From assembly GCA_963833985.1 (NCBI GenBank), contig CAWIAD010000001.1, forward strand, positions 3,296,001-3,360,000: a stretch of 64,000 nt of DNA. The letters are read 5' to 3'. Source of the DNA: an uncultured Planctomycetaceae bacterium. Its GTDB lineage: Bacteria > Planctomycetota > Planctomycetia > Isosphaerales > Isosphaeraceae. Position numbers and translations under genes: made by a program. Under the pieces are notes generated by a model. It was not told the origin of the DNA. It searched no databases and saw only the letters and a program-made list of their open reading frames with translations. Positions 26,442 through 38,303 of the stretch are shown in pieces; the first letter of the stretch is position 1; every line of letters starts with the position of its first letter.

Positions 26442-27032
26442 CGGATGCGGTCCTTTCTTCAGGATGTGGTCGCCAGTGATGGAGGGGCAGGTGGTGGCCG
26501 ACGCGCCGCTGCGAGGCGAGATCTCACGATGTGCGTGGCGCCTGGCCGTCTTGAATCCCGGAGAGCCCATCGCCCTCCGCATGCCCTCCACCAATGGCTC
26601 CGCGAATCCGCCTGAGGCATGCAACGCCCCTTGGAGGTTTTTTTCCGTTTGGAGGCACGGTCTACCCGAGCGAACCGTCCGGAAGCGGGTCGCCTTGCAC
26701 GAGCCGAGGGTAAGAAACCTGCAAGCATGGGAATCCCGCACGGCCTTGCGAACTTTGGAATCAACCGGAGAGGGGCGATCACGGCTCCCGGTCAGACGCG
26801 CACGGTTCAGCCGTCGGGTCGAGCCGTTCACGAAAAACCTGCTGCGTCGCAGTGCGCGGCTGCGATGCTGCTGTGGCCGGTATACGCAGGACCACGCATC
26901 GAGTAGACTGATCGCCGCAGGTCCGGGCAGATGCGCGGGTCCCCGAGCCGTTGGATGGTCATGACCGAGCCGCTCGCGGTTGGCGACTGATTCGAGGTGA
27001 AAGAAGAGGTCGGCCTCGCGGCCTGTGGTGAG

Positions 27033-28177
27033 ATGCCGGTGCCGGAGATCGAGCAGTGGGGGCAAGTGAGTACCACGCTCGACCAGGGAGGAACGGCCGA
27101 GCCCGCGTCGCAGCGTAAAATTATTCATATCGACATGGACGCGTTCTATGCGTCCGTCGAGCAGCGGGACAATCCAGAGCTGCTCGGCAAGCCCGTCGCG
27201 GTTGGCGGCGCACGCGAGCGCGGCGTTGTGGCGGCAGCCAGCTACGAGGCTCGCCGATTCGGCGTCAAGTCCGCCATGCCCTCGGTGACCGCCAGAAGAA
27301 AGTGCCCGGAGCTGATCTTCGTGAAACCGCGGTTCGAGGTCTATCGAGAGGTGTCGCAACAGATCCGCGAAGTCTTTGCCGCGTACACCGTCCTCGTCGA
27401 GCCGCTGTCCCTCGACGAGGCATATCTCGATGTCACACGGAACCTCAAGAACATGTCGTCGGCCACCGAGATCGCCAAGGAAATCCGGGCGCGGATCCGC
27501 TCCGAGACCGGGCTCACGGCGTCCGCGGGCGTCTCATACAACAAGTTCCTCGCCAAGATCGGGTCCGACGAGCGCAAGCCCGATGGGCTCTTCGTGATCA
27601 CGCCGAGGATGGGCCCGGCCTTCATCGAGCACCTCCCGGTCGGCAGGTTTCACGGGATTGGTCCGGTCACGGCGCCAGGATGGAGCAGCTTGGGATTCAC
27701 AACGGCGGCGACCTCCAGGCCCGGACCCTGTCTTTTCTGGAGCAGCATTTCGGCAAGGCGGGCCCGTACTATCATGCGCTGGCGCGGGGCATCGACGAAC
27801 GACAGGTCTGCGCGGATCGCGTTCGCAAATCCATCGGCGCTGAAACGACCTTCAATTCAGATCTCTTTACTCTCGATGAGGCTCGCGTGGCTCTGGGACC
27901 GCTCATCGCAAAGGTCTGGTCATACTCGGAAGACTCGAGTATCCGGGCGCGTACGGTGACGCTCAAGGCCAAGTACGCAGACTTCCAGCAGGTCACTCGC
28001 AGCCGCACGTGCCAGTCGCCGTTCGGCGCTCAAGCAGAAATCGAGGCCGTCGTCTACGAGCTGATTGACTTGCTCTTTCCTGTCCGCAAGGGCGTCCGTC
28101 TTCTCGGTGTGACGCTGTCGTCGCTGGGGGACGAGACCCGACCTGAGCGTCAACTTCGCCTGGCGTTTCCAGACTGA
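27033..28177 (+). CDS. dinB: DNA polymerase IV (DinB) with an apparent 1-nt frameshift at about 27672
   Basis: RKIIHIDMDAFYASVEQRD, SYEAR, SLDEAYLD and NKFLAK in ORF 26997..27959. The protein continues ARMEQLGI...RKSIGAETTF...VRLLGVTLS in ORF 27302..28177. The start is uncertain. Confidence 0.95.
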
Positions 28178-28269: not shown

Positions 28270-28309
28270 TCAGTGTGAACGCGATCCAGTCAGTGTGAAC
28301 GCGATCCAG
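28270..28309. repeat. Perfect 20-bp tandem duplication
   Basis: TCAGTGTGAACGCGATCCAG at 28270-28289 and again at 28290-28309. Confidence 0.95.
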
Positions 28310-29628
28310 CAGGTGGTCCACCGATCCGCTTCCGCGCCGGTGGCGTATTCCTGATACGTCCAGATTCTGGTCGGGTCGGAGGGGTCGAGACAGGTGGCGT
28401 TGTAGTTTCCCCATTGAATTCCGTACCGGCCTTCACGGCTGGATCTGAAGACTGTCGTTCCTGGCGCGGCGAGGATCGGTGGGCGCATCGTGTTTCTGGG
28501 ATCGCCGGCCGCGTGCATCATGACAACGGCCGAGGGGAATTCCTGCTCCGATGATCTTGTGCAGCCGAGACCCACGTTGCCGTTCGCGTCGACCGCCAGC
28601 GTGGGGATCAGGTAGTCGCATGCCGGGTCGTCGATGAAGCCTTCCTGTAACAGCGCGCCATCGCTGCCTCGGACTTCGCACCAGAAGATGCCCGGGCGCG
28701 AGTCGATCGCGCGCTTCGCCCCGTTGCACGTGAAGAAACCCCCCTTGTGCGCGTAGACGCACGTGGTGCGCCGGGCTTCGTCGGCACGAAGCCTGCGCCC
28801 CGGAGCGGGCTGGCTGGCCTGGTTCTTCAGTGATGCTCCATTGGGGCTCTCATACGTCTTGCTCAGCGGAACCGCCTGCAATTTCGAGATGCTCGCGGCA
28901 TTCCCCGCCCAGGTGATCTTGTACAGATAGAGCCTGGAAAAATGATTGCCGAACTCGCGGTTGAGCAGGATCTCAGGCGCATCGGCCGGCTTGTCCGGGT
29001 CAAGGTCAGTCGCCGGAAAGCAGTCGATTTCCAGATTGGCGAAAGTTCGCAGATGTTCGAGGCTCGGCCCGTCAGCGGCCAAGGCGTCCGCCTTCGGTAT
29101 TGCATGAACGCTCATCATTGTGTGGATATTACCGGTCAAAACAACATAAGCGATGTAGAGCCCGTTCTTGTCCACTCCCATCTTCATGCCCGGATCGGTC
29201 GGGGCCATGGGGAGCACGATCCCCCTCCAGCCCCTGGTGGGGTCCGACGTTTGCGACACGGCGAGGTATCCCACGGAGTCTTTCTTCAGCTCGGCGACGA
29301 CACCGAACCAGCGTCCGGAGAGCGGGTCATACAGCAGGCGCGGGTCGTTCAGCCCGGGCAAATTGAATCTCGGATTGGCGGCCTTCCAGAACTCCGTCTG
29401 GGTCATCTGCCGCACCACCTTGCCGGTTCTCTTGTCGTGGACCACCACGCAGGCATTCGTGAGGTCGACCACGTGATCTGGACCCACGGCGCCCACGTTG
29501 TCGGGGCAGTCCTTTGGCCCTGGCCCGGATGCCCCGGGAAACGTGGTGAGAATCTTCACTTCTCCTGCGTCCGTCGTGGCCGATACGAGAAGCGAAACGA
29601 GCAAGGCGATCCTCGACACTGTCGTCAT
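28270..29628 (-). CDS. Secreted hypothetical protein (beta-propeller-like)
   Basis: Signal peptide; PDNVGAVGPDHVV, DPRLLYDPLSGRW, AVSQTSDPT, WGNYNATCLDPSDPTRIWTYQEY. Divergent from the borosin operon. Confidence 0.75.
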   Translation of the reverse strand: MTTVSRIALLVSLLVSATTDAGEVKILTTFPGASGPGPKDCPDNVGAVGPDHVVDLTNACVVVHDKRTGKVVRQMTQTEFWKAANPRFNLPGLNDPRLLYDPLSGRWFGVVAELKKDSVGYLAVSQTSDPTRGWRGIVLPMAPTDPGMKMGVDKNGLYIAYVVLTGNIHTMMSVHAIPKADALAADGPSLEHLRTFANLEIDCFPATDLDPDKPADAPEILLNREFGNHFSRLYLYKITWAGNAASISKLQAVPLSKTYESPNGASLKNQASQPAPGRRLRADEARRTTCVYAHKGGFFTCNGAKRAIDSRPGIFWCEVRGSDGALLQEGFIDDPACDYLIPTLAVDANGNVGLGCTRSSEQEFPSAVVMMHAAGDPRNTMRPPILAAPGTTVFRSSREGRYGIQWGNYNATCLDPSDPTRIWTYQEYATGAEADRWTTCWIAFTLTGSRSH

Positions 29629-30052
29629 GTCGACTTCACTCCGCAATTGAAGAGGTCGCAGCGCATCCTTGGGATTGCCCGGTCCGTCCGCCCTGTCATA
29701 TCACTTCCCGATCAGCCTGCTTCCGCGTTGCGGCAAAGTCAAGGGTTGCGACCAGTCCCGACCTGGACCGAGATCGATGTCACGTGCTTCAATCCCATCG
29801 GCGGGCTGTCGGACACTCGACCCTTGCCAGGAGCCCGAAGAGATCTCCGGGAGCCCGGTTACCGGTTCCGGCGCATGGCCGTTTTCGAGTCAGTCAACTG
29901 TTTATTTGCACGCGCCGGGGCCGTTTGTGGAGAGACCTGTTGGCATTCGGGAGCGCCCGGGGCGGGTGAGCCGCCGGTACGCACTTGCTCCGGAACAGTC
30001 GGCCCAAAGGGGGTGTTCCGCTTGCATATCATCGGGATCGCGCTTTTTTCGT

Positions 30053-30081
30053 TTGCAAAGTGGATAGGGCTGTCTTAATCT
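30053..30081 (+). promoter_or_regulatory. Putative sigma70 promoter of the borosin operon
   Basis: TTGCAA (30053-30058), a 17-nt spacer, then TAATCT (30076-30081), preceded by a T-rich tract. An AAGGAG RBS precedes the ATG at 30146. Confidence 0.6.
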
Positions 30082-30145
30082 GTGACCTTCAACTCCCGAT
30101 CGCTCAATCGACCGGGCATCACTTCGATCGACCAAGGAGAAGACA

Positions 30146-30406
30146 ATGGCGACCTCTCTGCAACGGTTGCTGGTGCGGCTGGCAGTGGATGCGGAGCTGT
30201 ACGCGGAGTACCTCGAAGATCGCACCGCCGTCATGGGCCGGTTCGACCTGGACCCGGAGGAAATTGCCGCGATTGAGAGCCGCGACGTTGGGAAGATCGT
30301 CGCGCGGCTCTCTCCCGAAATGGCAGCGGGCATCCGGGGCACCGGTCAAGTGGTGGTCTCGCATAAGGCACTGATCCCTTCGATGGTGGAATTCGCCGGC
30401 GATTGA
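30146..30406 (+). CDS. Split-borosin RiPP precursor (SonA-like: LigA-type helical borosin-binding domain + C-terminal core)
   Basis: LAVDAELYAEYLEDRTAVMGRFDLDPEEIAAIESRD matches the SonA leader pattern as I recall it (LGQDAQLMEDYKQNPEAVMRAHGLTDEQINAVMTGD). The core QVVVSH parallels SonA YLVISH. Good RBS, directly upstream of a borosin methyltransferase. Confidence 0.88.
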   Translation: MATSLQRLLVRLAVDAELYAEYLEDRTAVMGRFDLDPEEIAAIESRDVGKIVARLSPEMAAGIRGTGQVVVSHKALIPSMVEFAGD

Positions 30407-30541
30407 TACAGCCGGCTGCTTGCCAGGTTTCGTTTTTCGGGGCGCCGTCAGCATCGTTGGCAACCAGACCGGGCTCAACTTGCATTGGCCGTCCTGCGGA
30501 AGACTCGCCCAGCCCGAGCAGAGCAGAGGGTCACGATTGCC

Positions 30542-31402
30542 ATGCACTTCAGATCGGGTCAAGGTTCGCTGATCGCAGTAGGAACGGGGATTCGCGTTGT
30601 GGGCCAGTTGACCACGGAGGCAATCGCCTGGATGAAGCGCGCGGATCGGCTTCTGTACTCCGTGTCCGACGTGCTCGCAGAGGAGACGATCCGGGAGTTG
30701 AACCCGGCCGGCGCGGAGTCACTGACGGTCTTCTACGCCGAGAACAAGCCGCGCGGGGTCACTTATCAGCAGATGGTGGAGCGAACGCTCCAGTGCGTGC
30801 GCTCGGGGATGCTCACCTGTGTCGCCCTCTATGGGCATCCCGGCGTCTTCGCCTACCCGGTGCACGAGGCGATCCGTCAAGCACGGGTGGAGGGCTACCC
30901 CGCGAGGATGCTGCCGGGAATCTCGTCCGACGCTTGCCTGTTCGCCGACCTGGGCGTTGACCCGGCCACCGCGGGCTGCCAGTCGTACGAGGCGACCGAT
31001 TTCCTGCTCTACGGCCGCACGGTCGACCCCTCCGCCGCGCTCATCCTCTGGCAGGTCGGGACGGTCGGTGACATCCTCTATCACCATGGCGCCTACGACC
31101 GCTCCCTGCTGCCGGTCCTGGTCGAACGGCTCTGCCGGTTCTATCCCGCGGACCACGTGTGCACGCTCTACGAGGCGGCCGTCCTGCCCGATGGCGAGCC
31201 CGAGATCCGGAAAGTGCCAATCGGCTTGCTTCACCAGGTGCCCGTCCCCTGGGCAACCACGGTGTATATTCCCCCTGCGCAGGTCCGCGGCCCCGATCTC
31301 GACATCCTGGCGCAGGATCGGGGCGGTTCTGGCCGTCGCGCCGCCGGCCGTGCCGGCAGCGAATGCAGAGCTCATCGAGATGGCCTGAGCGGGACAGTGT
31401 GA
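30542..31402 (+). CDS. Borosin alpha-N-methyltransferase (OphMA/SonM family, tetrapyrrole-methylase fold)
   Basis: GSLIAVGTGI, FYAENKPRGVTYQQM, YGHPGVF, MLPGISSDACLFADLGVDP, GCQSYEATDFLL, LILWQVG, YEAA. A probable extra base at about 31310 suggests the true end is PDLDILRRIG...IEMA* at 31388. Confidence 0.93.
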   Translation: MHFRSGQGSLIAVGTGIRVVGQLTTEAIAWMKRADRLLYSVSDVLAEETIRELNPAGAESLTVFYAENKPRGVTYQQMVERTLQCVRSGMLTCVALYGHPGVFAYPVHEAIRQARVEGYPARMLPGISSDACLFADLGVDPATAGCQSYEATDFLLYGRTVDPSAALILWQVGTVGDILYHHGAYDRSLLPVLVERLCRFYPADHVCTLYEAAVLPDGEPEIRKVPIGLLHQVPVPWATTVYIPPAQVRGPDLDILAQDRGGSGRRAAGRAGSECRAHRDGLSGTV

Positions 31403-31417
31403 CCAGGTCTGACATCG

Positions 31418-32857
31418 ATGCCGGAGGGATTGCCGATGCCCCTGAAACTGGCCCTCGTCATTGGCCCGATCCTCGCGGCCCTGTGCCAGGTCCTCGCGCC
31501 GGCACGCGGCGACCAGCTCCCTTTCACCGTGGAGCTGAAGGAGGTGACGTTCCCGGACGCACCTGCGCTCCAGTCCTTCGCGCTGGCTCAGGATTTCGAA
31601 GGGCCGCTGGCTCTGCCTCGGCGGCCGCACGGCCGGCATGCACGGGCAAAAGAATCAGAACTCCTCGGGGCAGCCCGTCAACTTCACGGACTTTAACGAT
31701 CGCGCCTGGGTGATCGACGTGGCAGATAACAAGGCGACTCCGCGATCGCTCTCGGAGCTGGGCCTTGTCCCGGCTGTGGTGGAGTCGCTGGCGGTCACCG
31801 GGGCAGAGTCGTTGCAGCTCGGAGACAAACTGTACATCGTCGGCGGCTACGGGAACTCCGCCACCTCGAAATACCCCATCACTTTTAGCCGTCTCACTGT
31901 TGTGGATGTAGGCGCTACTGCGGACGCAGTTGTCGGCAGTGCTCTTATCGGCAGCCATATCCGACAGAGCGCCCGGACAAGTATCTCCATGTGGCTGGCG
32001 GCGCGCTCGAGTCTCTGGGCGACTCATTCGTGCTGGCGCTGGGGCAAGCGTTCAACATCCCTTACAAAAAGAGTCTGTCGGGCAAGTATACAAACGAGCT
32101 TCGCCCCTTCCGAGTTGACGATGACGGCACCTCGGTCCAGGTCGTGAAGGGAACTCCGGGCGGCTCATGTGATCCGGAGCTTGGTCGCCGTCATATGAAC
32201 CTGGTTCCGGCGATCCGTGCCGACGGCACGCGCGGTCTGACCGTTTACGGCGGCGTCTTCACGCAACTTGGAGGACCCTGGTACCGGCCGATCGATATCG
32301 ATCGGCAGCAGTCGTCGATTATCCCATCGATGCGGTCGGCAGACTTCCAGCAGCGTCTCTGTCAGTACAGCTGCCCGGCGCTACCGATCCACCAAGCGTC
32401 CGATCAGTCAATGTACACGCTCTTCTTCGGTGGCATCTCCGAGGTTTATTACTCGGCCACGATGCCGGATGGATTCCAGCTCGATACCGGTCTCCCGTTT
32501 GTTGATCATGTCGGGTGCATCGGCCGCACGGCTACGAGTGCGAAGGAATGGCTGGTCTGCAAGGGCGGCTCGGGCTCGCCTGTCCCGCTCAGACTTCCCG
32601 ATCTACTGGGCACGACCGCGCAGTTTGTTCCACTCCATGCGGTGCAGACCACGCTCTATAACGGCGGCGTGCTCGAGCTCGGGAGCTTGACCGGCCAAAC
32701 GCTGGTCGGACATATCTACGGCGGAATTGTCGGCACCACTGTCGCTGGCGGTGCGACCACTGCCAGCAAGCGGATCTTCGAGGTCTATCTCACGGCCGTG
32801 CCCTCGACGGGCCTTCCCGTGGCTTCCGGAATGCGAATCTTCGGTCCACGTCTTTAA
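31418..32857 (+). CDS. Secreted Kelch-like beta-propeller protein, split by two apparent frameshifts (about 31603 and 31972)
   Basis: Signal peptide + ALQSFALAQ (31418 frame), then RWLCLGGRTAGMHG..LYIVGGYG..HIRQ (31638 frame), then YLHVAGGAL..VYGGVF..LFFGGIS..GHIYGGI (31991 frame). The repeated hydrophobic-GG motifs are typical of Kelch blades. Confidence 0.75.
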
Positions 32858-32874
32858 CTCCCTGGGGCCCTGTC

Positions 32875-34884
32875 ATGAGCGTGCTCTCTTATCCCCGCCT
32901 CCATTTCAAGGGGAACTGTATCATCAACCCGGCAACGGGTAATAGCGACGACGTCATGGTCAATATCGATACCGTCAACGCCAGGCTCATGCCGGCCCTG
33001 GCCGATCTTGACGACGCCGCGGCCCGCGCCTGGATGATGTCCGGGACCCAGCAGGTGAACCCGGTCACCGGACAATCCTTCGAGTATTGCCGATCGTCGT
33101 GGAATTACTTCGGGAATATGTCGGTCTCGTTCTCGGATACACGCATCACGTCCGTTGTCAACATCACGGGAGATGTATCCGAGACCGATCCGGTCGTCGG
33201 CAAGCTCTTGAATCTGATTCACTCGCTTCCGTTGAACAACAACGAGACAGACTTTCATGGTGTGATATGCGACCTTGATCCCCTGGGCACCGCGCTCTGC
33301 CAGATCTTCCTGGGCGGGTTCCAGCTCAGCGATTCAACCGACCCGGGGAGCCCCAGGTGGATCTTCGCACAGAACGACGCGCGTGCGTTCGGCCGCTGGG
33401 TCGGCTGGCGCAACGCAAGCAGTTTTCTCGACTCGTGCAGCTTCGCGGGTGCGGGCGCAGTCTGGCAGTTCGCCATCTCCAAGGACAAGCTCACCTTCGA
33501 TAACGCCTTACAGTCACCGGTCCTGGACCAGCTTCAGCAGGCTGCCCAGGGCAACAAGGGCATCGTGGTCCAGTTTTGCTTCTACCAGGTCATCCCCACG
33601 ATCGCCACGAAGGACCTCCTGGGGAATTACTCAATCAGCACTAAGGGAATCGAAAACCCGGCGCAAGGGTTGATGGTGGGGACCATCGGGGTGTGGGAGG
33701 AGGGCGAGCTGATGACCACGCCCAGCGACCGCTTGCTGCTCCGGCCGTCCACCCTGCCGCCTGAAACTGCTGTCAACACGGCCTGCCAGTTCATGGGGCC
33801 GGCCACCGCCCGGGTTCAGCGTGACGTGAAGGTGGTATCGCTGAACCTGATCACCGCGTTCCCCGAAGCGGGCTTTAAACCACCCTATGATAAGGCTGAC
33901 CTCGGAGATATCTATCTTGCGTACATCCCGGATTCCGGAGGCGGCCCCATTCTCCTCGGAGACCCCATAGAATATGACCGGGTCGAATACGATTTGACCG
34001 CGGGCATCGTGGACGTGGAATATCAAGACTCGAGTCTCTTGCCACAGGACCTCCAGGGCGGCGGGCTGCTCCTGTTGGCCTGGCCGGACAGGACGTTGAA
34101 CGTGGTGTACCCGATCCTCACCGAAGAGGACTCGACCATCAGGATCGAGACCGATGACCGCGGGATCTACAGCGATGTCCGCCAGGACGGGAAGCTGTCG
34201 ATCCTCGTCCGCGAGCGCGGCGGTCCACCCCAAAAGCCTGTCGATATCTATCTCTGGGAATACCAGTACGTGCCCTGCTCGGTGACTACATCACAGTCGC
34301 ATGCGCCGACATTGACGCTCGTGGAGGATGGGCCACCGCTCCAGCACCGGCTTGACTATTCAAGGAAGGTCACATTCCCGGCGGGGAGCCGAGATCCGTA
34401 TGAAATCAGGTTTCACACGCTGAGGCCCGGCGCCGTTGCGCTGGTATTCACTCGCGACGGCCAGCCGCTCTCCGGAGACTACCCCTGGGGTACTGCGTCC
34501 TACGCCGGCGTTCGGGTGCTTCCAGACGACGACTTCAGCTCGGTCGACAAGCAGTTACGAATTTCCTGGGATTATATTTATAATGTCATTTTCCGATACT
34601 ACCACCTTGTGTTTCCGGCCATGTCCGGGGTCATCGCTCTGAATGACAGGACGGAAATGGAACAGGCGGCCGATCTCCTGGTGGATTACACGGAGCCGGA
34701 TCGCCGCTACGGTACCACGTACATGCCACCCTCTCGTGACTTATCCACGGGCAAGCGTGCCTTGATCGTGGAATGGGCCAATTCGGTTCCGCCCTCGCAC
34801 AAGAGAAAAGCTCCATCCATCCGGCTCAGAGGCGCGGCACCGCCGACTCCGCCTCCGCCTCCAGCTCCGCCACGAACGCCTTGA
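32875..34884 (+). CDS. VioB/RebD/StaD-like protein lacking the C-terminal ferritin-like domain
   Basis: MSVLSYPRLHFKG..NPATGN versus VioB MSILDFPRIHFRG..NAPTAN; DLDP..QIFLGGF; WQFAISKD; GTIGVWEEGEL..P..RLL; VRVLPDD; FRYYHLVFPAMS; YMPPSRDLS..KRAL versus VioB YMPSTRELS..KARL. The ORF stops after a Pro-rich tail. VioB sequences are quoted from memory. Confidence 0.8.
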   Translation: MSVLSYPRLHFKGNCIINPATGNSDDVMVNIDTVNARLMPALADLDDAAARAWMMSGTQQVNPVTGQSFEYCRSSWNYFGNMSVSFSDTRITSVVNITGDVSETDPVVGKLLNLIHSLPLNNNETDFHGVICDLDPLGTALCQIFLGGFQLSDSTDPGSPRWIFAQNDARAFGRWVGWRNASSFLDSCSFAGAGAVWQFAISKDKLTFDNALQSPVLDQLQQAAQGNKGIVVQFCFYQVIPTIATKDLLGNYSISTKGIENPAQGLMVGTIGVWEEGELMTTPSDRLLLRPSTLPPETAVNTACQFMGPATARVQRDVKVVSLNLITAFPEAGFKPPYDKADLGDIYLAYIPDSGGGPILLGDPIEYDRVEYDLTAGIVDVEYQDSSLLPQDLQGGGLLLLAWPDRTLNVVYPILTEEDSTIRIETDDRGIYSDVRQDGKLSILVRERGGPPQKPVDIYLWEYQYVPCSVTTSQSHAPTLTLVEDGPPLQHRLDYSRKVTFPAGSRDPYEIRFHTLRPGAVALVFTRDGQPLSGDYPWGTASYAGVRVLPDDDFSSVDKQLRISWDYIYNVIFRYYHLVFPAMSGVIALNDRTEMEQAADLLVDYTEPDRRYGTTYMPPSRDLSTGKRALIVEWANSVPPSHKRKAPSIRLRGAAPPTPPPPPAPPRTP

Positions 34885-37686
34885 AGTCCTCGCGGCCGCG
34901 GAGCGGAGCCAGGTCGGGGTCATTGGATTTCAAGCCCAGGAACTGGAACGGCTGGCGAAAGAGCCCGGTAGTGCGGGTCTCGCGCAGCAACTGCATGGCA
35001 CGGTCCAGGTAGCTCTTCGCGCGGCGGGCTTGGTCCGCCACCGCCAGGTTGCCGTCGCGGCGCGCGGCCTCGGCGGAGACGCAACAACAGCAGGCTGCGT
35101 ACAGCAGTGCCATGCCGGAGCGCGACGAGGCCGCAAGGATCTCTTCGGTCGCCTCGATGGCGTACTGGTGCTTGCCGAGCTGTGCCTGATAGATCATGTA
35201 AAGGATCTCGATCAGGCAACGATTCTCCACGAAGAGAGCCACGTCGGGGTGCTCGCGCGCAGCCGCTCGCTGATCTGGCGGATCTTCGTGTGTAGCACGG
35301 GGACCTTGCCCGATTTCCGTGCGTTCGAGTAGACCGCGGCAATGAGCATGCACGAATCAACCAGGCTCGCCTGGTACTCGATGTCCGTGCCGTGCTCGAC
35401 CGCCAGCTTCTCCCGCACCTTCAGCACCTGGTCAAAGAGTTGCTCCGCCTGGGTCAGATCGCCGGAAAAACCCTGGACTGCTCCGCGCAGCAGCAGCGCC
35501 TCGGCCTGCTCGTTCAGGTAGACCGGGTCTTCCGGACTGCTCTCCAGCAGGTACCGGCATTGCCTCAGGCTCTCGCCCAGCACCTGCTCGCTGGCCCCCG
35601 GATCGCGTAGAACCAGGCCGAGAAGCCGGGCCAGATGGTTGAGCGTGGTAGCGGCCTGCAAGCGATGCTTCGGAACATGCTCGTGTTCCCGGAGGATCCC
35701 CTTCAGCAGGTCGATGGCCCGCTGGTAAGCGGCCCTGGCCTCGGCGGGCTGGCTGAGGGCCTTGTAATTGCTGCCCAGGCAATCGAGCGCTCGGGCCAGC
35801 TCGCCCCTGTACTCAAGATGCGCCGGGTAACTTTGCGCGAGTTGTTCGAAGATGCTACAGGCCTGCTGCGAGAGTGGGACCGCCGCTCCGGGCTGCCCCA
35901 GCTCCTGGTTGAACCTGGCGAGCCGGACGCAGAACCTGCCGCGCTCCGTCTCGACGCGCGGCTCGTGGTTTTCCTGCCGGGCGAAGATGTCGTAGAAGTC
36001 CTTGCCAAGCTGGAGAAGTTCCTGACGTTTGCGCTCCAGCCCGCGCGACTTGAGGGCGGGGTCGTCGACGATCGTGCCGTAGAGCTGATCGACGGCGGCC
36101 ATCGCGAGCTGCAAGTTGTTCCTGGCGCGCTCGTGCGCCGCGGTCTCGCGGATGGCTGACAGCTTGAGAAAGACCGTTGCTGCCGAGAGGACCATGGTCG
36201 CCACCAGCAAGCTGGCCAGGCAGGCCGTGGCCAGGGTGCGATGCCGGCTGGTCCAGCGCCTGGCCCTGGCGGTCCAGTGCTCCGGGTATGCGGAGACGGG
36301 CTCGTCCGCGAGGTACCTGCGCACGTCGTCGGCCAGGTCCGCCGCGTGGATGTAGCGGTCTTGCGGCGTCTTCGCCAGGCACTTCAGGCAAACCGCCTCG
36401 AGCGCCGGTGGTACTTCGCGGACCAGCTTCCGGGGCGGCTGGGGCAGCTCCTCCACCACCTGCCTGAGGACCTCGTTGACGCTTCCCCGGAACGGTGGCT
36501 CGCCGGTGAGGATCTCGTACAGGATGGCGCCCAGACCGTAGATATCGCTCCGTTCATCGACCAGGTCGGTCCGGCCCAGCGCCTGCTCGGGCGACATGTA
36601 GCAGGGCGTGCCCAGCAACTCGCCCGGTACGGTATCGGCCGAAGCGTCGGGGAATCGTTGGACGGCTGCCACCGGACTGTCCTGCGGTTCAGCCGCTGTG
36701 TGGTCGTGTTCCGCCGGCGATTCCTGGGCCTGCTCGACGATCCGCGCCAGGCCCCAGTCGAGCACCACAACCTCCCCAAAATCGCCCAGCACCACATTCT
36801 GGCCCTTGATGTCGCGGTGGATCACCCCGCGGCTGTGGGCGTAGGCGATCACCTGGCAGACGCTCTGGAATGCACCCAGCAGTTCGCGAAGCTGGATCGA
36901 GGGCTCCGTGCCGCCGGTGCGCTGGCGGTGATACTCGCGGGCAGACTCGGTCAGCGTCCGTCCGCTGATGAACCGCATGGTGTAAAAGGGCGCTTTGCCG
37001 TCGCCGCCGGGCTCAAGCTCGTACACCGGTGCGATGCCGGGATGGTGCAGCCGCCCAGTGACCCGTGCCTCTCTGAGGAATCGCGCCTGGGCAACGGGAC
37101 TCAGCGAAGTGAGGGGCCGCAAACGCTTCAGCGCGATCTCGCGCCCGAGGTGGTGGTCATAGGCGAGCCAGACCTGTCCGATGCCGCCCTGAGCATGAAT
37201 GCGGTCCAGCGTATATCGCCCGCCAGGGAAGACGCGTTGAGCCCGAGATGAAGCGGGCACACCATCGGCTCCGTGGTCGTCGCGTGGATCCTCCGGCGCC
37301 GGCGACGCCGACACAGTGTCCGTGCCCGCATCGGCCGCAGACGCTTCGCTGGGCCACCATGGCGCCGGGCACTCCGCCGGCAGCGATCTTGCCATCACCA
37401 GTTCGCGAAAAGCCGATTCGACCAGCGTGTGCTGGTCGGGAAAGCGGCTCAGGTAGTCCTGGGGGGTCGGCTCCTCCCCGCGGGTCCGGCGCAGCTCGAT
37501 CTCCAGCCCGATGAGCCGGTAGAGCACGGCGGCTCGATCCTCCGCGCTAGCCTCGCTCAGATACTCTTCAATGGGACGGGGAGCCTGGCGCCGCCAGTCG
37601 GCCTCGAACTGATCGCACACCTTGATGGCTCTCTGGAGCAGCGAGAGCGACACCGAGGCGGGTGCGGTCTTCTCGGCCTGGGTCAT
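34826..37686 (-). CDS. Ser/Thr protein kinase with a transmembrane helix and TPR-like C-terminus (apparent frameshift at about 35260)
   Basis: CDQFEADW N-terminal planctomycete motif; AQGGIG, IALK, HRDIKGQN, DWGLA, GTPCYMSPEQ. After QISERL it continues AREHPDVALF...DPDLAPLRGREDF in ORF 34826..35353. The ATG overlaps the ECF stop codon (ATGA). Confidence 0.9.
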
Positions 37687-38303
37687 GCGCTTTCTCCTGA
37701 GAGCCACTTCTTGCGAATGAACTCAAGCTTGTACGCCACCGTCCGCGGCGAGCACTCCAGCCGCCTGGCGATCTCGTCCTTCGTGTACCCTTCAAGCCGC
37801 CAGATCGCGATCTGGCGGATCGCGTCGTCCCCAAGCACCTCGAGCAGCCGGTCGAATTGCTCGGCGATCATGGCGGCGAACTCGGGCGTGGGATCATGCC
37901 CGATGATCGCGTCCAGACCCTCCTGCCAGCCGGATTCCGACCCCACGAGAGCCGATTCGGTGAGCACACGACCGGCACCGCGCTTCTGGCGGCCCTGCCG
38001 GACGCGCTGGTCCGCCACTTTCCGCGCGGTGATCACGACCAGCAGCCGCCAGAGATCGTCACGATCCTTCAGCAGGGGAAAACGACCCTGAGCGGCCCCC
38101 CGGCAGAAGCTGTCGAACGCGCTGAGTGCCGCGTCTTCTTCATCGGCCTCGGCGCTCCGCCTGGGGGAACTGATCAGCCTTGCGTGCGCCAGGCGCACCA
38201 GTCGAGCGAAGTAGCGCTCCCAGAGTTTCTGCGATGCCTCCTGGTCCCCCTCCTTGAGCAGCGAGATCCATGAAGTCACTGAACCCGACTCGTCTTCTGC
38301 CAT
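37683..38303 (-). CDS. ECF-type RNA polymerase sigma factor (planctomycete Sigma70_ECF type, kinase-associated)
   Basis: SVTSWI..LKEGDQEA..LWERYFARLVRLA, DEEDAALSAFDSF, DRDDLWRLLVVIT.RK, QKRG, LEGYTKDEIARRLECSPRTV. Confidence 0.92.
   Translation of the reverse strand: MAEDESGSVTSWISLLKEGDQEASQKLWERYFARLVRLAHARLISSPRRSAEADEEDAALSAFDSFCRGAAQGRFPLLKDRDDLWRLLVVITARKVADQRVRQGRQKRGAGRVLTESALVGSESGWQEGLDAIIGHDPTPEFAAMIAEQFDRLLEVLGDDAIRQIAIWRLEGYTKDEIARRLECSPRTVAYKLEFIRKKWLSGESA

What the first reader, a model, noticed from the sequence alone, without database searches (positions are those of the whole stretch)
30053..34884. Split-borosin RiPP operon coupled to a Kelch propeller and a truncated VioB/RebD-like enzyme
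Seen in the sequence: a promoter-like site and four co-oriented, closely spaced genes (precursor, N-methyltransferase, secreted Kelch-like protein, VioB-like protein), with gaps of only about 15-30 nt between the last three. Established: SonM/SonA-type split borosins methylate the backbone amides of a separate precursor, while VioB/RebD/StaD are heme enzymes of bisindole pathways. Inference: I know of no described pathway that combines these two families. This may be a new planctomycete borosin system with oxidative tailoring or an extracellular partner.
Basis: partly seen in the sequence, partly recalled or inferred. Interest (0 to 1): 0.92.

Follow-up and report, generated by a model that had tools for sequence, protein, structure and literature searches.

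The report
Borosin cassette with VioB-like heme protein
In one family of planctomycete bacteria, the genes for a backbone-methylated peptide travel together with an unstudied relative of the violacein enzyme VioB and a membrane kinase, which points to a peptide-modifying or peptide-signalling pathway that the papers searched do not describe.

Summary
The operon is real. The precursor (30146-30406) and methyltransferase (30542-31402) form a type IV split borosin, with all four SonM active-site residues present.

The VioB-like gene (32875-34884) is complete, not truncated. It belongs to a large stand-alone family that equals VioB minus its ferritin-like domain. Among 121 genomes of the family, all 10 close-clade copies lie directly downstream of a borosin methyltransferase. 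None of 109 more distant VioB-like loci has one.

The propeller gene is optional (4 of 11 clusters), has a predicted signal peptide, and carries two frameshifts here, probably assembly errors. Its kinase sits beside 9 of 11 clusters and shares their history. The promoter at 30053 recurs in 7 of 11 clusters.

The protein's last domain looks like a cytochrome c without CxxCH, with two near-invariant methionines (M583, M617), also present in true VioB. This is a candidate bis-Met heme site, with moderate support.

Best reading (about 0.45): a heme oxidoreductase that tailors His/Tyr residues in methylated V-T-H/Y repeats. No activity or binding is shown. Verdict: new variant of a known kind.

The parts
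30053..30081 (+). Sigma70-type promoter-like site TTGCAA-17 nt-TAATCT
   Evidence: Same pattern at the same distance in 7 of 11 homologous clusters; background 0.3-0.8%. Below the threshold of the consensus scan.
30146..30406 (+). Borosin precursor, 86 aa: borosin-binding (LigA-like) domain at residues about 5-53, core with Q-V69-V-V71-S-H73
   Evidence: Pfam LigA over cut-off; SonA is the top PDB hit but weak, E 0.21; AAGGAG ribosome-binding site; SonA core YLVISH is methylated at L63 and I65.
30542..31402 (+). SonM-type backbone alpha-N-methyltransferase. A frameshift near 31315 may alter the last 25 or so residues.
   Evidence: SonM E 7e-57; Y65/R71/Y75/Y97 align to SonM Y58/R67/Y71/Y93; homolog tails compared.
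31436..32857 (+). Kelch-like beta-propeller with predicted signal peptide, in three frames (shifts at about 31601-31604 and 31970-31973); optional in the cassette
   Evidence: 44-53% identity to intact 468-504 aa homologs over the two longer pieces; hydrophobic N-terminus; the family carries T9SS and PEP-CTERM tails and has TM 0.59-0.62 to Kelch clusters; present in 4 of 11 clusters.
32875..34884 (+). Stand-alone VioB-like protein, 669 aa, matching VioB residues 1-589 without the ferritin-like domain: N-terminal beta-barrel, Ig-like domain 421-550, helical domain 555-640
   Evidence: TIGR04492 113 bits; BLASTP to a full VioB; AlphaFold pLDDT 85, pTM 0.88; fold matches.
34537..34794 (+). Candidate CxxCH-less cytochrome c-like heme domain with near-invariant M583 and M617-P618
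   Evidence: M583 in 130 of 135 and M617 in 134 of 135 family representatives; HHalign to cytochrome c domains, probability 59%; top three VIA hits are c-type cytochromes, but Z is only 3.4-3.9.
34826..37686 (-). Ser/Thr kinase - transmembrane helix - TPR protein. One frameshift near 35250; the C-terminal piece is 34826-35353 and overlaps the end of the VioB-like gene by 59 nt.
   Evidence: Pfam Pkinase and TPR; transmembrane segment and frameshift; best G000 hit for 7 of 7 cassette-adjacent kinases tested, about 1.6-1.9 times the score of the next paralog.
37683..38303 (-). ECF sigma factor, with an ATGA overlap to the kinase gene
   Evidence: NCBIfam ECF models below cut-off; best G000 hit for 3 of 3 cassette-adjacent ECFs, by a small margin; overlap seen.

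Best explanation
This is a conserved peptide-modification cassette of Isosphaeraceae-type planctomycetes: precursor + SonM-type methyltransferase + stand-alone VioB-like protein, with a dedicated membrane kinase-TPR (and ECF sigma factor) and an optional exported propeller. STEP 1 (strong homology): the methyltransferase docks on the precursor's borosin-binding domain and N-methylates backbone amides, here probably V69 and V71 by analogy with SonA L63/I65. STEP 2 (inferred): the VioB-like protein binds heme b non-covalently in a cytochrome c-like C-terminal domain with M583/M617 as ligands. It has no ferritin-like partner and uses its beta-barrel as a substrate pocket. It oxidises the His/Tyr that follows the methylated residues in the repeated V/L/A-T-H/Y cores, for example by radical aromatic coupling, as VioB couples two indole units. 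STEP 3 (inferred, weaker): the product acts outside the cytoplasm, where the propeller and the kinase's TPR domain could bind it, and the kinase signals through the ECF sigma factor.
For: LINKAGE: 10 of 10 close-clade VioB-like genes in 121 family genomes sit directly downstream of the methyltransferase. Of 120 VioB-like loci, 11 have a borosin methyltransferase, all planctomycete close-clade, and 0 of the other 109 do (some of the 11 are overlapping views of one cluster). The link holds across 35-82% identity of the VioB-like protein and through rearrangement of the kinase. Pairwise identities of methyltransferase, VioB-like protein and kinase co-vary (Mantel r 0.62-0.75). CORES: a hydrophobic-[TSA]-[HY] motif occurs in 10 of 11 precursors, often as 3-6 Pro-spaced repeats, against 1 of 14 precursors from borosin loci without the VioB-like gene. 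SonM contacts are mostly blind to side chains (PMC8429565), so something else may read the His/Tyr. HEME SITE. PARTNERS: no PF12902 domain anywhere in G000. Distant family members pair with ferritin-like proteins (48 of 109 loci) or with CxxCH proteins (6 of 6 checked), so the module is used with varying redox partners. No signal peptide is seen on precursor, methyltransferase or VioB-like protein.
Against: All linked clusters descend essentially from one acquisition (9 of 11 methyltransferases form one clade, support 0.876), so the counts are not independent. SonA itself ends in V-I-S-H with no VioB-like partner described, so the motif is not diagnostic. Control cores are short, which lowers their chance of holding it. 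One linked precursor (L017) has no His or Tyr in its core. The cytochrome c fold match is weak (Z at most 3.9; Foldseek found nothing), and a bis-Met heme suggests electron transfer rather than catalysis (recalled). No protease or transporter is conserved in the cassette. Most of the wider family has no peptide partner, so its ancestral substrate is not a RiPP precursor. The window's copy carries several frameshifts.
Confidence: 0.45

Rival explanations
1. Co-regulated but parallel activities. The VioB-like protein is a heme enzyme for a small molecule (an aromatic compound or peroxide; VioB has catalase activity) in the same kinase/ECF-linked response, and it never touches the precursor. The methylated peptide is the signal or a structural product.
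For: The family is large (1,369 clusters at 50% identity) and outside this clade never lay next to a borosin gene (0 of 109 loci). VioB acts on IPA imine and has catalase activity (PMC9705886). Borosin clusters commonly carry signalling genes such as GGDEF (56%; 10.1101/2021.12.24.474128). The kinase-TPR is as conserved as the VioB-like gene.
Against: No amino-acid oxidase, ferritin-like protein or other substrate-supplying enzyme is conserved in the cassette. Cores are enriched in repeated His/Tyr motifs.
Confidence: 0.3
2. Protein-level signalling module with no released natural product. The Pro/Thr-rich precursor stays intact as a methylated scaffold or kinase substrate, and the VioB-like protein is a heme redox or gas sensor feeding the kinase/ECF pair.
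For: No conserved protease or exporter. Cores up to 219 aa are rich in Pro and Thr. The kinase is orthologous across clusters. Kinase-associated ECFs are thought to be activated by direct phosphorylation (PMC7826278).
Against: Cores are hypervariable and multi-copy, as in RiPP precursors. Borosin proteases can be encoded distally (10.1101/2024.01.09.574750). The kinase's TPR lies beyond a transmembrane helix, away from cytoplasmic partners.
Confidence: 0.15
3. No functional link. The genes were brought together once on a mobile segment and have hitch-hiked since; the window's copy may already be decaying.
For: One clade and a patchy distribution (9 of 121 genomes; 0 of 400 in a phylum-wide sample). 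Four frameshifts in about 8 kb here against 0.14 per kb background (Poisson p about 0.03). Frameshifted VioB-like genes in L017 and L149.
Against: Gene order and the promoter motif persist at 35-55% protein identity, with no close-clade VioB-like gene found alone. The kinase stays attached after inversion. Intact clusters exist. 13 of 67 ordinary G000 genes also show frameshifts.
Confidence: 0.1

Closest known systems
Type IV split borosin SonM/SonA, Shewanella oneidensis (PDB 7LTC; PMC8429565)
   Same: Separate methyltransferase with the four active-site residues; precursor with borosin-binding domain and a V-x-V/I-S-H core.
   Different: Conserved VioB-like gene, kinase-TPR/ECF pair and optional propeller instead of a GGDEF protein; homologous precursors carry long Pro-rich multi-repeat cores with T-H/T-Y.
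VioB (TIGR04492) and the related RebD/StaD dimer synthases
   Same: Homologous over VioB residues 1-589, including the N-terminal MSVL-x-[YF]PR-x-HF-x-G motif and the Y/M/MP/R residues of the helical domain.
   Different: No ferritin-like domain in the protein or genome, 113 against 1250 bits, no tryptophan oxidase gene in the cassette, linked to a peptide precursor.
Stand-alone VioB-N-like proteins of other bacteria (uncharacterised; ESM Atlas clusters of 52-682 members)
   Same: Same three-part architecture and length.
   Different: They pair with ferritin-like proteins, CxxCH proteins or tandem paralogs; none of 109 such loci held a borosin methyltransferase.
Type X borosins (TPR-TM-GGDEF-methyltransferase fusions; 10.1101/2021.12.24.474128)
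   Same: Borosin chemistry tied to a membrane receptor with an extracytoplasmic TPR domain.
   Different: Here the receptor is a separate Ser/Thr kinase with an ECF sigma factor rather than a fused diguanylate cyclase.
Class I cytochrome c domains (e.g. planctomycete cytochrome c domains; PccH 4RLR)
   Same: Helix order, distal Met-Pro and C-terminal helix align; M583 falls on the proximal His.
   Different: No CxxCH, so any heme would be non-covalent with Met/Met ligation; the structural match is weak.

Membership tests
Type IV split borosin | Stand-alone ~260-290 aa TP_methylase-fold enzyme closest to borosin methyltransferases | tested here: met
   Pfam PF00590; all 25 PDB hits are borosin methyltransferases, SonM first.
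Type IV split borosin | Active-site Y58, R67, Y71, Y93 (SonM) and the YGHP / CLFAD motifs | tested here: met
   Y65, R71, Y75, Y97 and both motifs.
Type IV split borosin | Separate precursor with borosin-binding domain and C-terminal core | tested here: met
   LigA 25.8 bits over cut-off 25.3; SonA best but weak PDB hit; present in 11 of 11 clusters.
Type IV split borosin | SAM-dependent backbone N-methylation of the core | not testable with these tools
   Needs co-expression and LC-MS/MS.
VioB/RebD/StaD dimer synthase | TIGR04492 score over cut-off | tested here: not met
   113 against 1250 bits; a true VioB scores 1505.
VioB/RebD/StaD dimer synthase | C-terminal ferritin-like domain PF12902, fused or adjacent | tested here: not met
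   Absent from the protein and not found in G000, 96% complete.
VioB/RebD/StaD dimer synthase | Neighbouring tryptophan oxidase (VioA/RebO/StaO type) | tested here: not met
   None in the ORF list or among conserved neighbours; the rest of the genome was not searched for it.
VioB/RebD/StaD dimer synthase | Homology to the N-terminal 590 residues with conserved residues | tested here: met
   BLASTP E 6e-21 (residues 1-288) and 1e-10 (531-641); shared invariant residues.
VioB/RebD/StaD dimer synthase | Heme b binding and oxidative coupling activity | not testable with these tools
   Needs purification and spectroscopy.
Class I cytochrome c domain | CxxCH heme-attachment motif | tested here: not met
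   Replaced by L-V-F-P-A-M583 in the profile alignment.
Class I cytochrome c domain | Cytochrome c fold with distal Met-Pro and C-terminal helix | tested here: inconclusive
   HHalign probability 59%, score 28.3 against at most 13.7 for 30 column shuffles and at most 14.0 for 8 control profiles. VIA top three are c-type cytochrome proteins and 10 of 50 rows are, but Z is 3.9 or less (rmsd 4.0 over 80 residues). Foldseek and Pfam found nothing relevant.
Kelch-repeat beta-propeller | Pfam Kelch repeats over cut-off | tested here: not met
   E 0.02, below cut-off; two intact homologs have no Pfam hit at E 0.01.
Kelch-repeat beta-propeller | Propeller fold like Kelch proteins | tested here: met
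   The Atlas model of an intact homolog has TM 0.59-0.62 to named Kelch clusters (predicted models on both sides).
Kinase-associated ECF sigma factor groups | ECF coupled to a Ser/Thr kinase gene | tested here: met
   ATGA overlap of ECF and kinase genes; such groups are described in PMC7826278.
Kinase-associated ECF sigma factor groups | Assignment to a numbered group (ECF59-62, ECF217) and control of this promoter | not tested
   No group profiles available. The conserved promoter looks sigma70-like rather than ECF-like (recalled consensus).

The most novel reading that the evidence does not exclude
The stand-alone VioB-like protein is the first VioB/StaD-family member recruited as a RiPP tailoring enzyme. 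It oxidatively couples His/Tyr side chains in backbone-N-methylated repeats to make a signal peptide read by its own kinase-TPR receptor. Its CxxCH-less, bis-methionine cytochrome c-like domain is the long-unlocated heme site of VioB, RebD and StaD.
Probability: 0.3. Interest if true: 0.9.

Novelty: new variant of a known kind. Interest (0 to 1): 0.72.

Why it matters
The borosin papers read here report no modification beyond N-methylation for the tested split systems, so a dedicated oxidative partner would add new chemistry to the class. VioB had no solved structure in a 2021 review (PMC9705886), and no VioB-like chain was found in the 2026 PDB copy by sequence or fold. A well-modelled 650-aa stand-alone relative and two named methionines (M530 and M565 in the L035 VioB) make the heme-site question directly testable, independent of the borosin link. 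The cassette also gives planctomycete kinase/ECF pairs a candidate peptide ligand, and named cultured relatives carry the genes.

Tried and rejected
1. Complex prediction of VioB-like protein + heme + precursor returned no verdict; it is not used either way.
2. Sequencing runs for 29900-35000: none was listed, so the frameshifts and expression could not be checked on reads.
3. PDB sequence searches with the whole-protein and C-terminal profiles gave nothing significant. Foldseek on the whole model matched only Ig-like parts. Foldseek and its VIA second look on the C-terminal domain gave nothing. A Pfam scan of 76 C-terminal domains gave only chance hits.
4. 'Truncated VioB' was rejected: family length, end motifs and 1,369 representative clusters.
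5. Tyr576 as a catalase-like heme ligand was set aside: it is Phe or Trp in 20 of 136 relatives, while both methionines are near-invariant.
6. The propeller as core tailoring enzyme was rejected: absent from 7 of 11 clusters, signal peptide, widespread exported family. No invariant Cys, as a galactose-oxidase cofactor would need (requirement recalled).
7. A propeller-VioB-like fusion (P0169) is not accepted as a true fusion: it is a single contig, one of two long hits, and the junction lacks both genes' normal end and start motifs.
8. No second origin of the borosin/VioB-like pairing was found: no VioB-like gene in 32 control loci (about 1.5 kb flanks) from two other phyla. One of 5 such genomes has VioB-like genes, but more than 50 kb from its methyltransferases or on other contigs.
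9. The paper search returned only unrelated cryo-EM papers.
10. Look-ups in earlier scan findings by sequence, by place and by two word sets were empty.
Full report
OBSERVATION. The four genes are present on the + strand. The precursor (30146-30406) passes the Pfam LigA cut-off, and the methyltransferase (30542-31402) is TP_methylase. All 25 PDB hits of the methyltransferase are borosin enzymes, SonM first at E 7e-57. Y65, R71, Y75 and Y97 align with SonM Y58, R67, Y71 and Y93, the residues mutated in PMC8429565 (passages; numbering). The SonA C-terminus is given as DSSYQSYLVISHGNGD in PMC10549244 (passage), with methylation at L63 and I65. The window's QVVVSH therefore predicts V69 and V71 (inference).

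THE PROPELLER GENE. Gene 3 is spread over three frames, with shifts near 31601-31604 and 31970-31973, both in G/C runs. This assembly is error-prone: 13 of 67 orthologs of genes from a related genome show a frame change, 0.14 per kb. Two shifts in 1.4 kb are still more than that rate predicts (p about 0.02), so decay is not excluded. Intact homologs are 468-504 aa. They belong to a widespread family with T9SS and PEP-CTERM tails (188 hits among 8000 candidates scored) and a Kelch-like predicted fold. The gene is in 4 of 11 clusters.

THE VIOB-LIKE GENE IS COMPLETE. It scores 113 bits on TIGR04492 and aligns with residues 1-589 of a full VioB, whose ferritin-like domain starts at 618. Close homologs are about 620-670 aa at 42-50% identity; the named ones come from Aquisphaera species. 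A profile search finds 1,369 clusters at 50% identity, and most of the 150 listed are 560-760 aa. G000 has no PF12902 domain. AlphaFold gives pLDDT 85 and pTM 0.88. Residues 421-550 are Ig-like (Z up to 10.1, rmsd 2.6 over 93 residues). The N-terminal part resembles streptavidin/YceI-type barrels at Z about 7, which may be only a common arrangement.

CANDIDATE HEME SITE. The helical domain 555-640 is shared with true VioB and its cyanobacterial relatives. M583 is kept in 130 of 135 and M617 in 134 of 135 representatives, while Y576 is often Phe. Folded alone, its top three VIA matches are c-type cytochrome proteins and 10 of 50 rows are, but Z is at most 3.9, below the tool's stated noise level, and Foldseek finds nothing. 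HHalign against 23 cytochrome c domains from G000 gives probability 59% and score 28.3. Controls score at most 13.7 for 30 column shuffles, 9.8 for the reversed profile and at most 14.0 for 8 unrelated profiles. In the end-to-end alignment, which itself scores weakly (1.7%), M583 falls on the His of CxxCH; M617-P618 falls on the distal Met-Pro. I chose that template after seeing the resemblance. I put a non-covalent, bis-Met heme domain at about 0.6. VioB is reported to use heme b and to lack a structure (PMC9705886, passages).

SYNTENY. Across 121 genomes of the window's family, 11 match the close-clade profile and 13 have a borosin methyltransferase. In 9 genomes (10 clusters, G000 included) the VioB-like gene follows the methyltransferase directly or across the propeller. 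The other two genomes hold distant members with a ferritin-like gene behind them. Four methyltransferase genomes lack the VioB-like gene. A phylum-wide sample had 0 of 400. One metagenome cluster (L093) brings the total to 11 distinct clusters; duplicate views were counted once. Of 120 VioB-like loci, 31 are ferritin fusions, 17 have a ferritin-like gene nearby, 61 have neither, and 11 have a borosin methyltransferase, all close-clade. The genome scan kept only the best 80 of 144 confirmed matches, and some loci are short. Nine of 11 linked methyltransferases form one clade, so this is one conserved acquisition and not repeated independent pairing. The VioB-like gene is frameshifted in 2 of 11 clusters (L017, L149).

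THE MISSED PART. A Ser/Thr kinase-TM-TPR gene lies beside 9 of 11 clusters, upstream in four and convergent downstream in five. The two exceptions end at or near contig limits. G000 gives about 100 or more kinase matches per query, yet 7 of 7 cassette kinases tested hit the window's kinase best, at about 1.6-1.9 times the next score; 2 of 2 control kinases hit other paralogs. An ECF gene was seen in 4 of 11 clusters. Pairwise identities of methyltransferase, VioB-like protein and kinase co-vary (Mantel r 0.62-0.75 on 8-9 clusters; kinship alone can give this). No other neighbour is conserved. Kinase-linked ECFs are described in PMC7826278 (passages).

PROMOTER. The site at 30053 fails the consensus scan but recurs 91-115 nt upstream of the precursor in 7 of 11 clusters. 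Two of the four without it follow the kinase gene directly.

PRECURSORS. Cores range from 15 to 219 aa. Eight of 11 are long, mostly Pro-rich, and 10 of 11 hold hydrophobic-[TSA]-[HY], up to six times. Fourteen precursors from borosin loci without the VioB-like gene have short cores, and 1 of 14 has the motif (methyltransferase fusions were dropped before counting). Against reading this as diagnostic: SonA has it, control cores are short, and L017 lacks it.

MECHANISM. Shown by homology and conservation: a type IV borosin pair, a tightly linked complete VioB-like gene, a linked kinase and a shared promoter. Inferred: heme binding, oxidation of His/Tyr in the core, export and sensing. Aromatic cross-linking by heme enzymes in other RiPP classes and bis-Met heme in bacterioferritin are recalled precedents, not tested here. 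I weigh tailoring at 0.45, a parallel small-molecule activity at 0.30, protein-level signalling at 0.15 and hitch-hiking at 0.10.

LITERATURE. Full-text searches gave 0 papers for borosin + VioB. Borosin + Planctomycet gave 2 listings, not read. RiPP + VioB + precursor peptide gave 1 paper, whose single VioB passage is about violacein engineering. Searches on the VioB heme site or structure gave reviews and pathway papers, seen as listings. I read parts 1-3 of 4 plus passages of 10.1101/2021.12.24.474128, parts 2-3 of 4 plus passages of 10.1101/2024.01.09.574750 and passages of PMC11395268. The term counts show no mention of planctomycetes or heme in the two preprints. Their supplementary datasets of borosin clusters and Pfam domains were not seen and may list these loci. 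Most subscription papers are not searched.

VERDICT. A real and conserved new variant of the split borosins, with an uncharacterised VioB-family partner and a dedicated kinase. It also yields a testable proposal for the VioB heme site. The function is unproven and the pairing is confined to one lineage. Interest 0.72.

Noticed in passing
P0169 (single 6,205-bp metagenome contig): A 1150-aa protein joining the cassette-type propeller (about residues 34-468) to a VioB-like domain (494-1148). It may be a true fusion or two adjacent genes merged by an indel; either way the two genes are neighbours in a more distant organism.
   Followed up: partly
L054:6836-7987, L032:6750-7946, L021:6741-7964, L047:6849-7982, L038:6987-7994, L075:6762-7976: Distant stand-alone VioB-like genes are preceded by a ~340-410 aa protein with one S-C-x-x-C-H motif and, in those scanned, no Pfam family: an undescribed two-protein redox module. 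Several lie in what look by eye like ebo-type clusters.
   Followed up: partly
L024, L034, L048, L061, L064, L077-L079, L084: Acidobacterial loci with two or three tandem VioB-like paralogs, most with a GAF protein and some with a ferritin-like gene.
   Followed up: no
window 32875-32910: The extreme N-terminus M-S-[VI]-L is near-invariant across the family, including true VioB. The free N-terminal Ser could be structural or catalytic.
   Followed up: no
window 29993-30020: Inverted repeat GGAACA-16 nt-TGTTCC just upstream of the promoter, a possible regulator site; not seen by eye in homologous clusters.
   Followed up: no
window 26997-28177 (+): A DinB-like polymerase gene split over two frames (recognised by eye), another likely assembly frameshift.
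   Followed up: no
window 28270-29646 (-): Divergent gene for a ~450-aa protein with a possible signal peptide and no Pfam or NCBIfam hit; not conserved next to the other clusters.
   Followed up: partly
L146:8176-10500 and L147:4812-8412: Borosin-type methyltransferases with degenerate active-site motifs directly downstream of what look like YcaO/TfuA genes (recognised by eye, not scanned): a possible thioamide + N-methyl RiPP system.
   Followed up: no
L143:7905-10410 and L144:5943-8378: Fusions of borosin-binding domain and methyltransferase next to a long coiled-coil membrane protein with a Thr/Pro-repeat tail, a candidate unusual precursor.
   Followed up: no
L172:7757-9609: Borosin locus with several precursor-like genes, one with tandem borosin-binding domains, convergent on a STAND/TPR-like gene.
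   Followed up: no
L008:14050-15345: A glycosyltransferase-like gene (by eye) between two paralogous cassettes about 9 kb apart in one genome; not conserved elsewhere.
   Followed up: no
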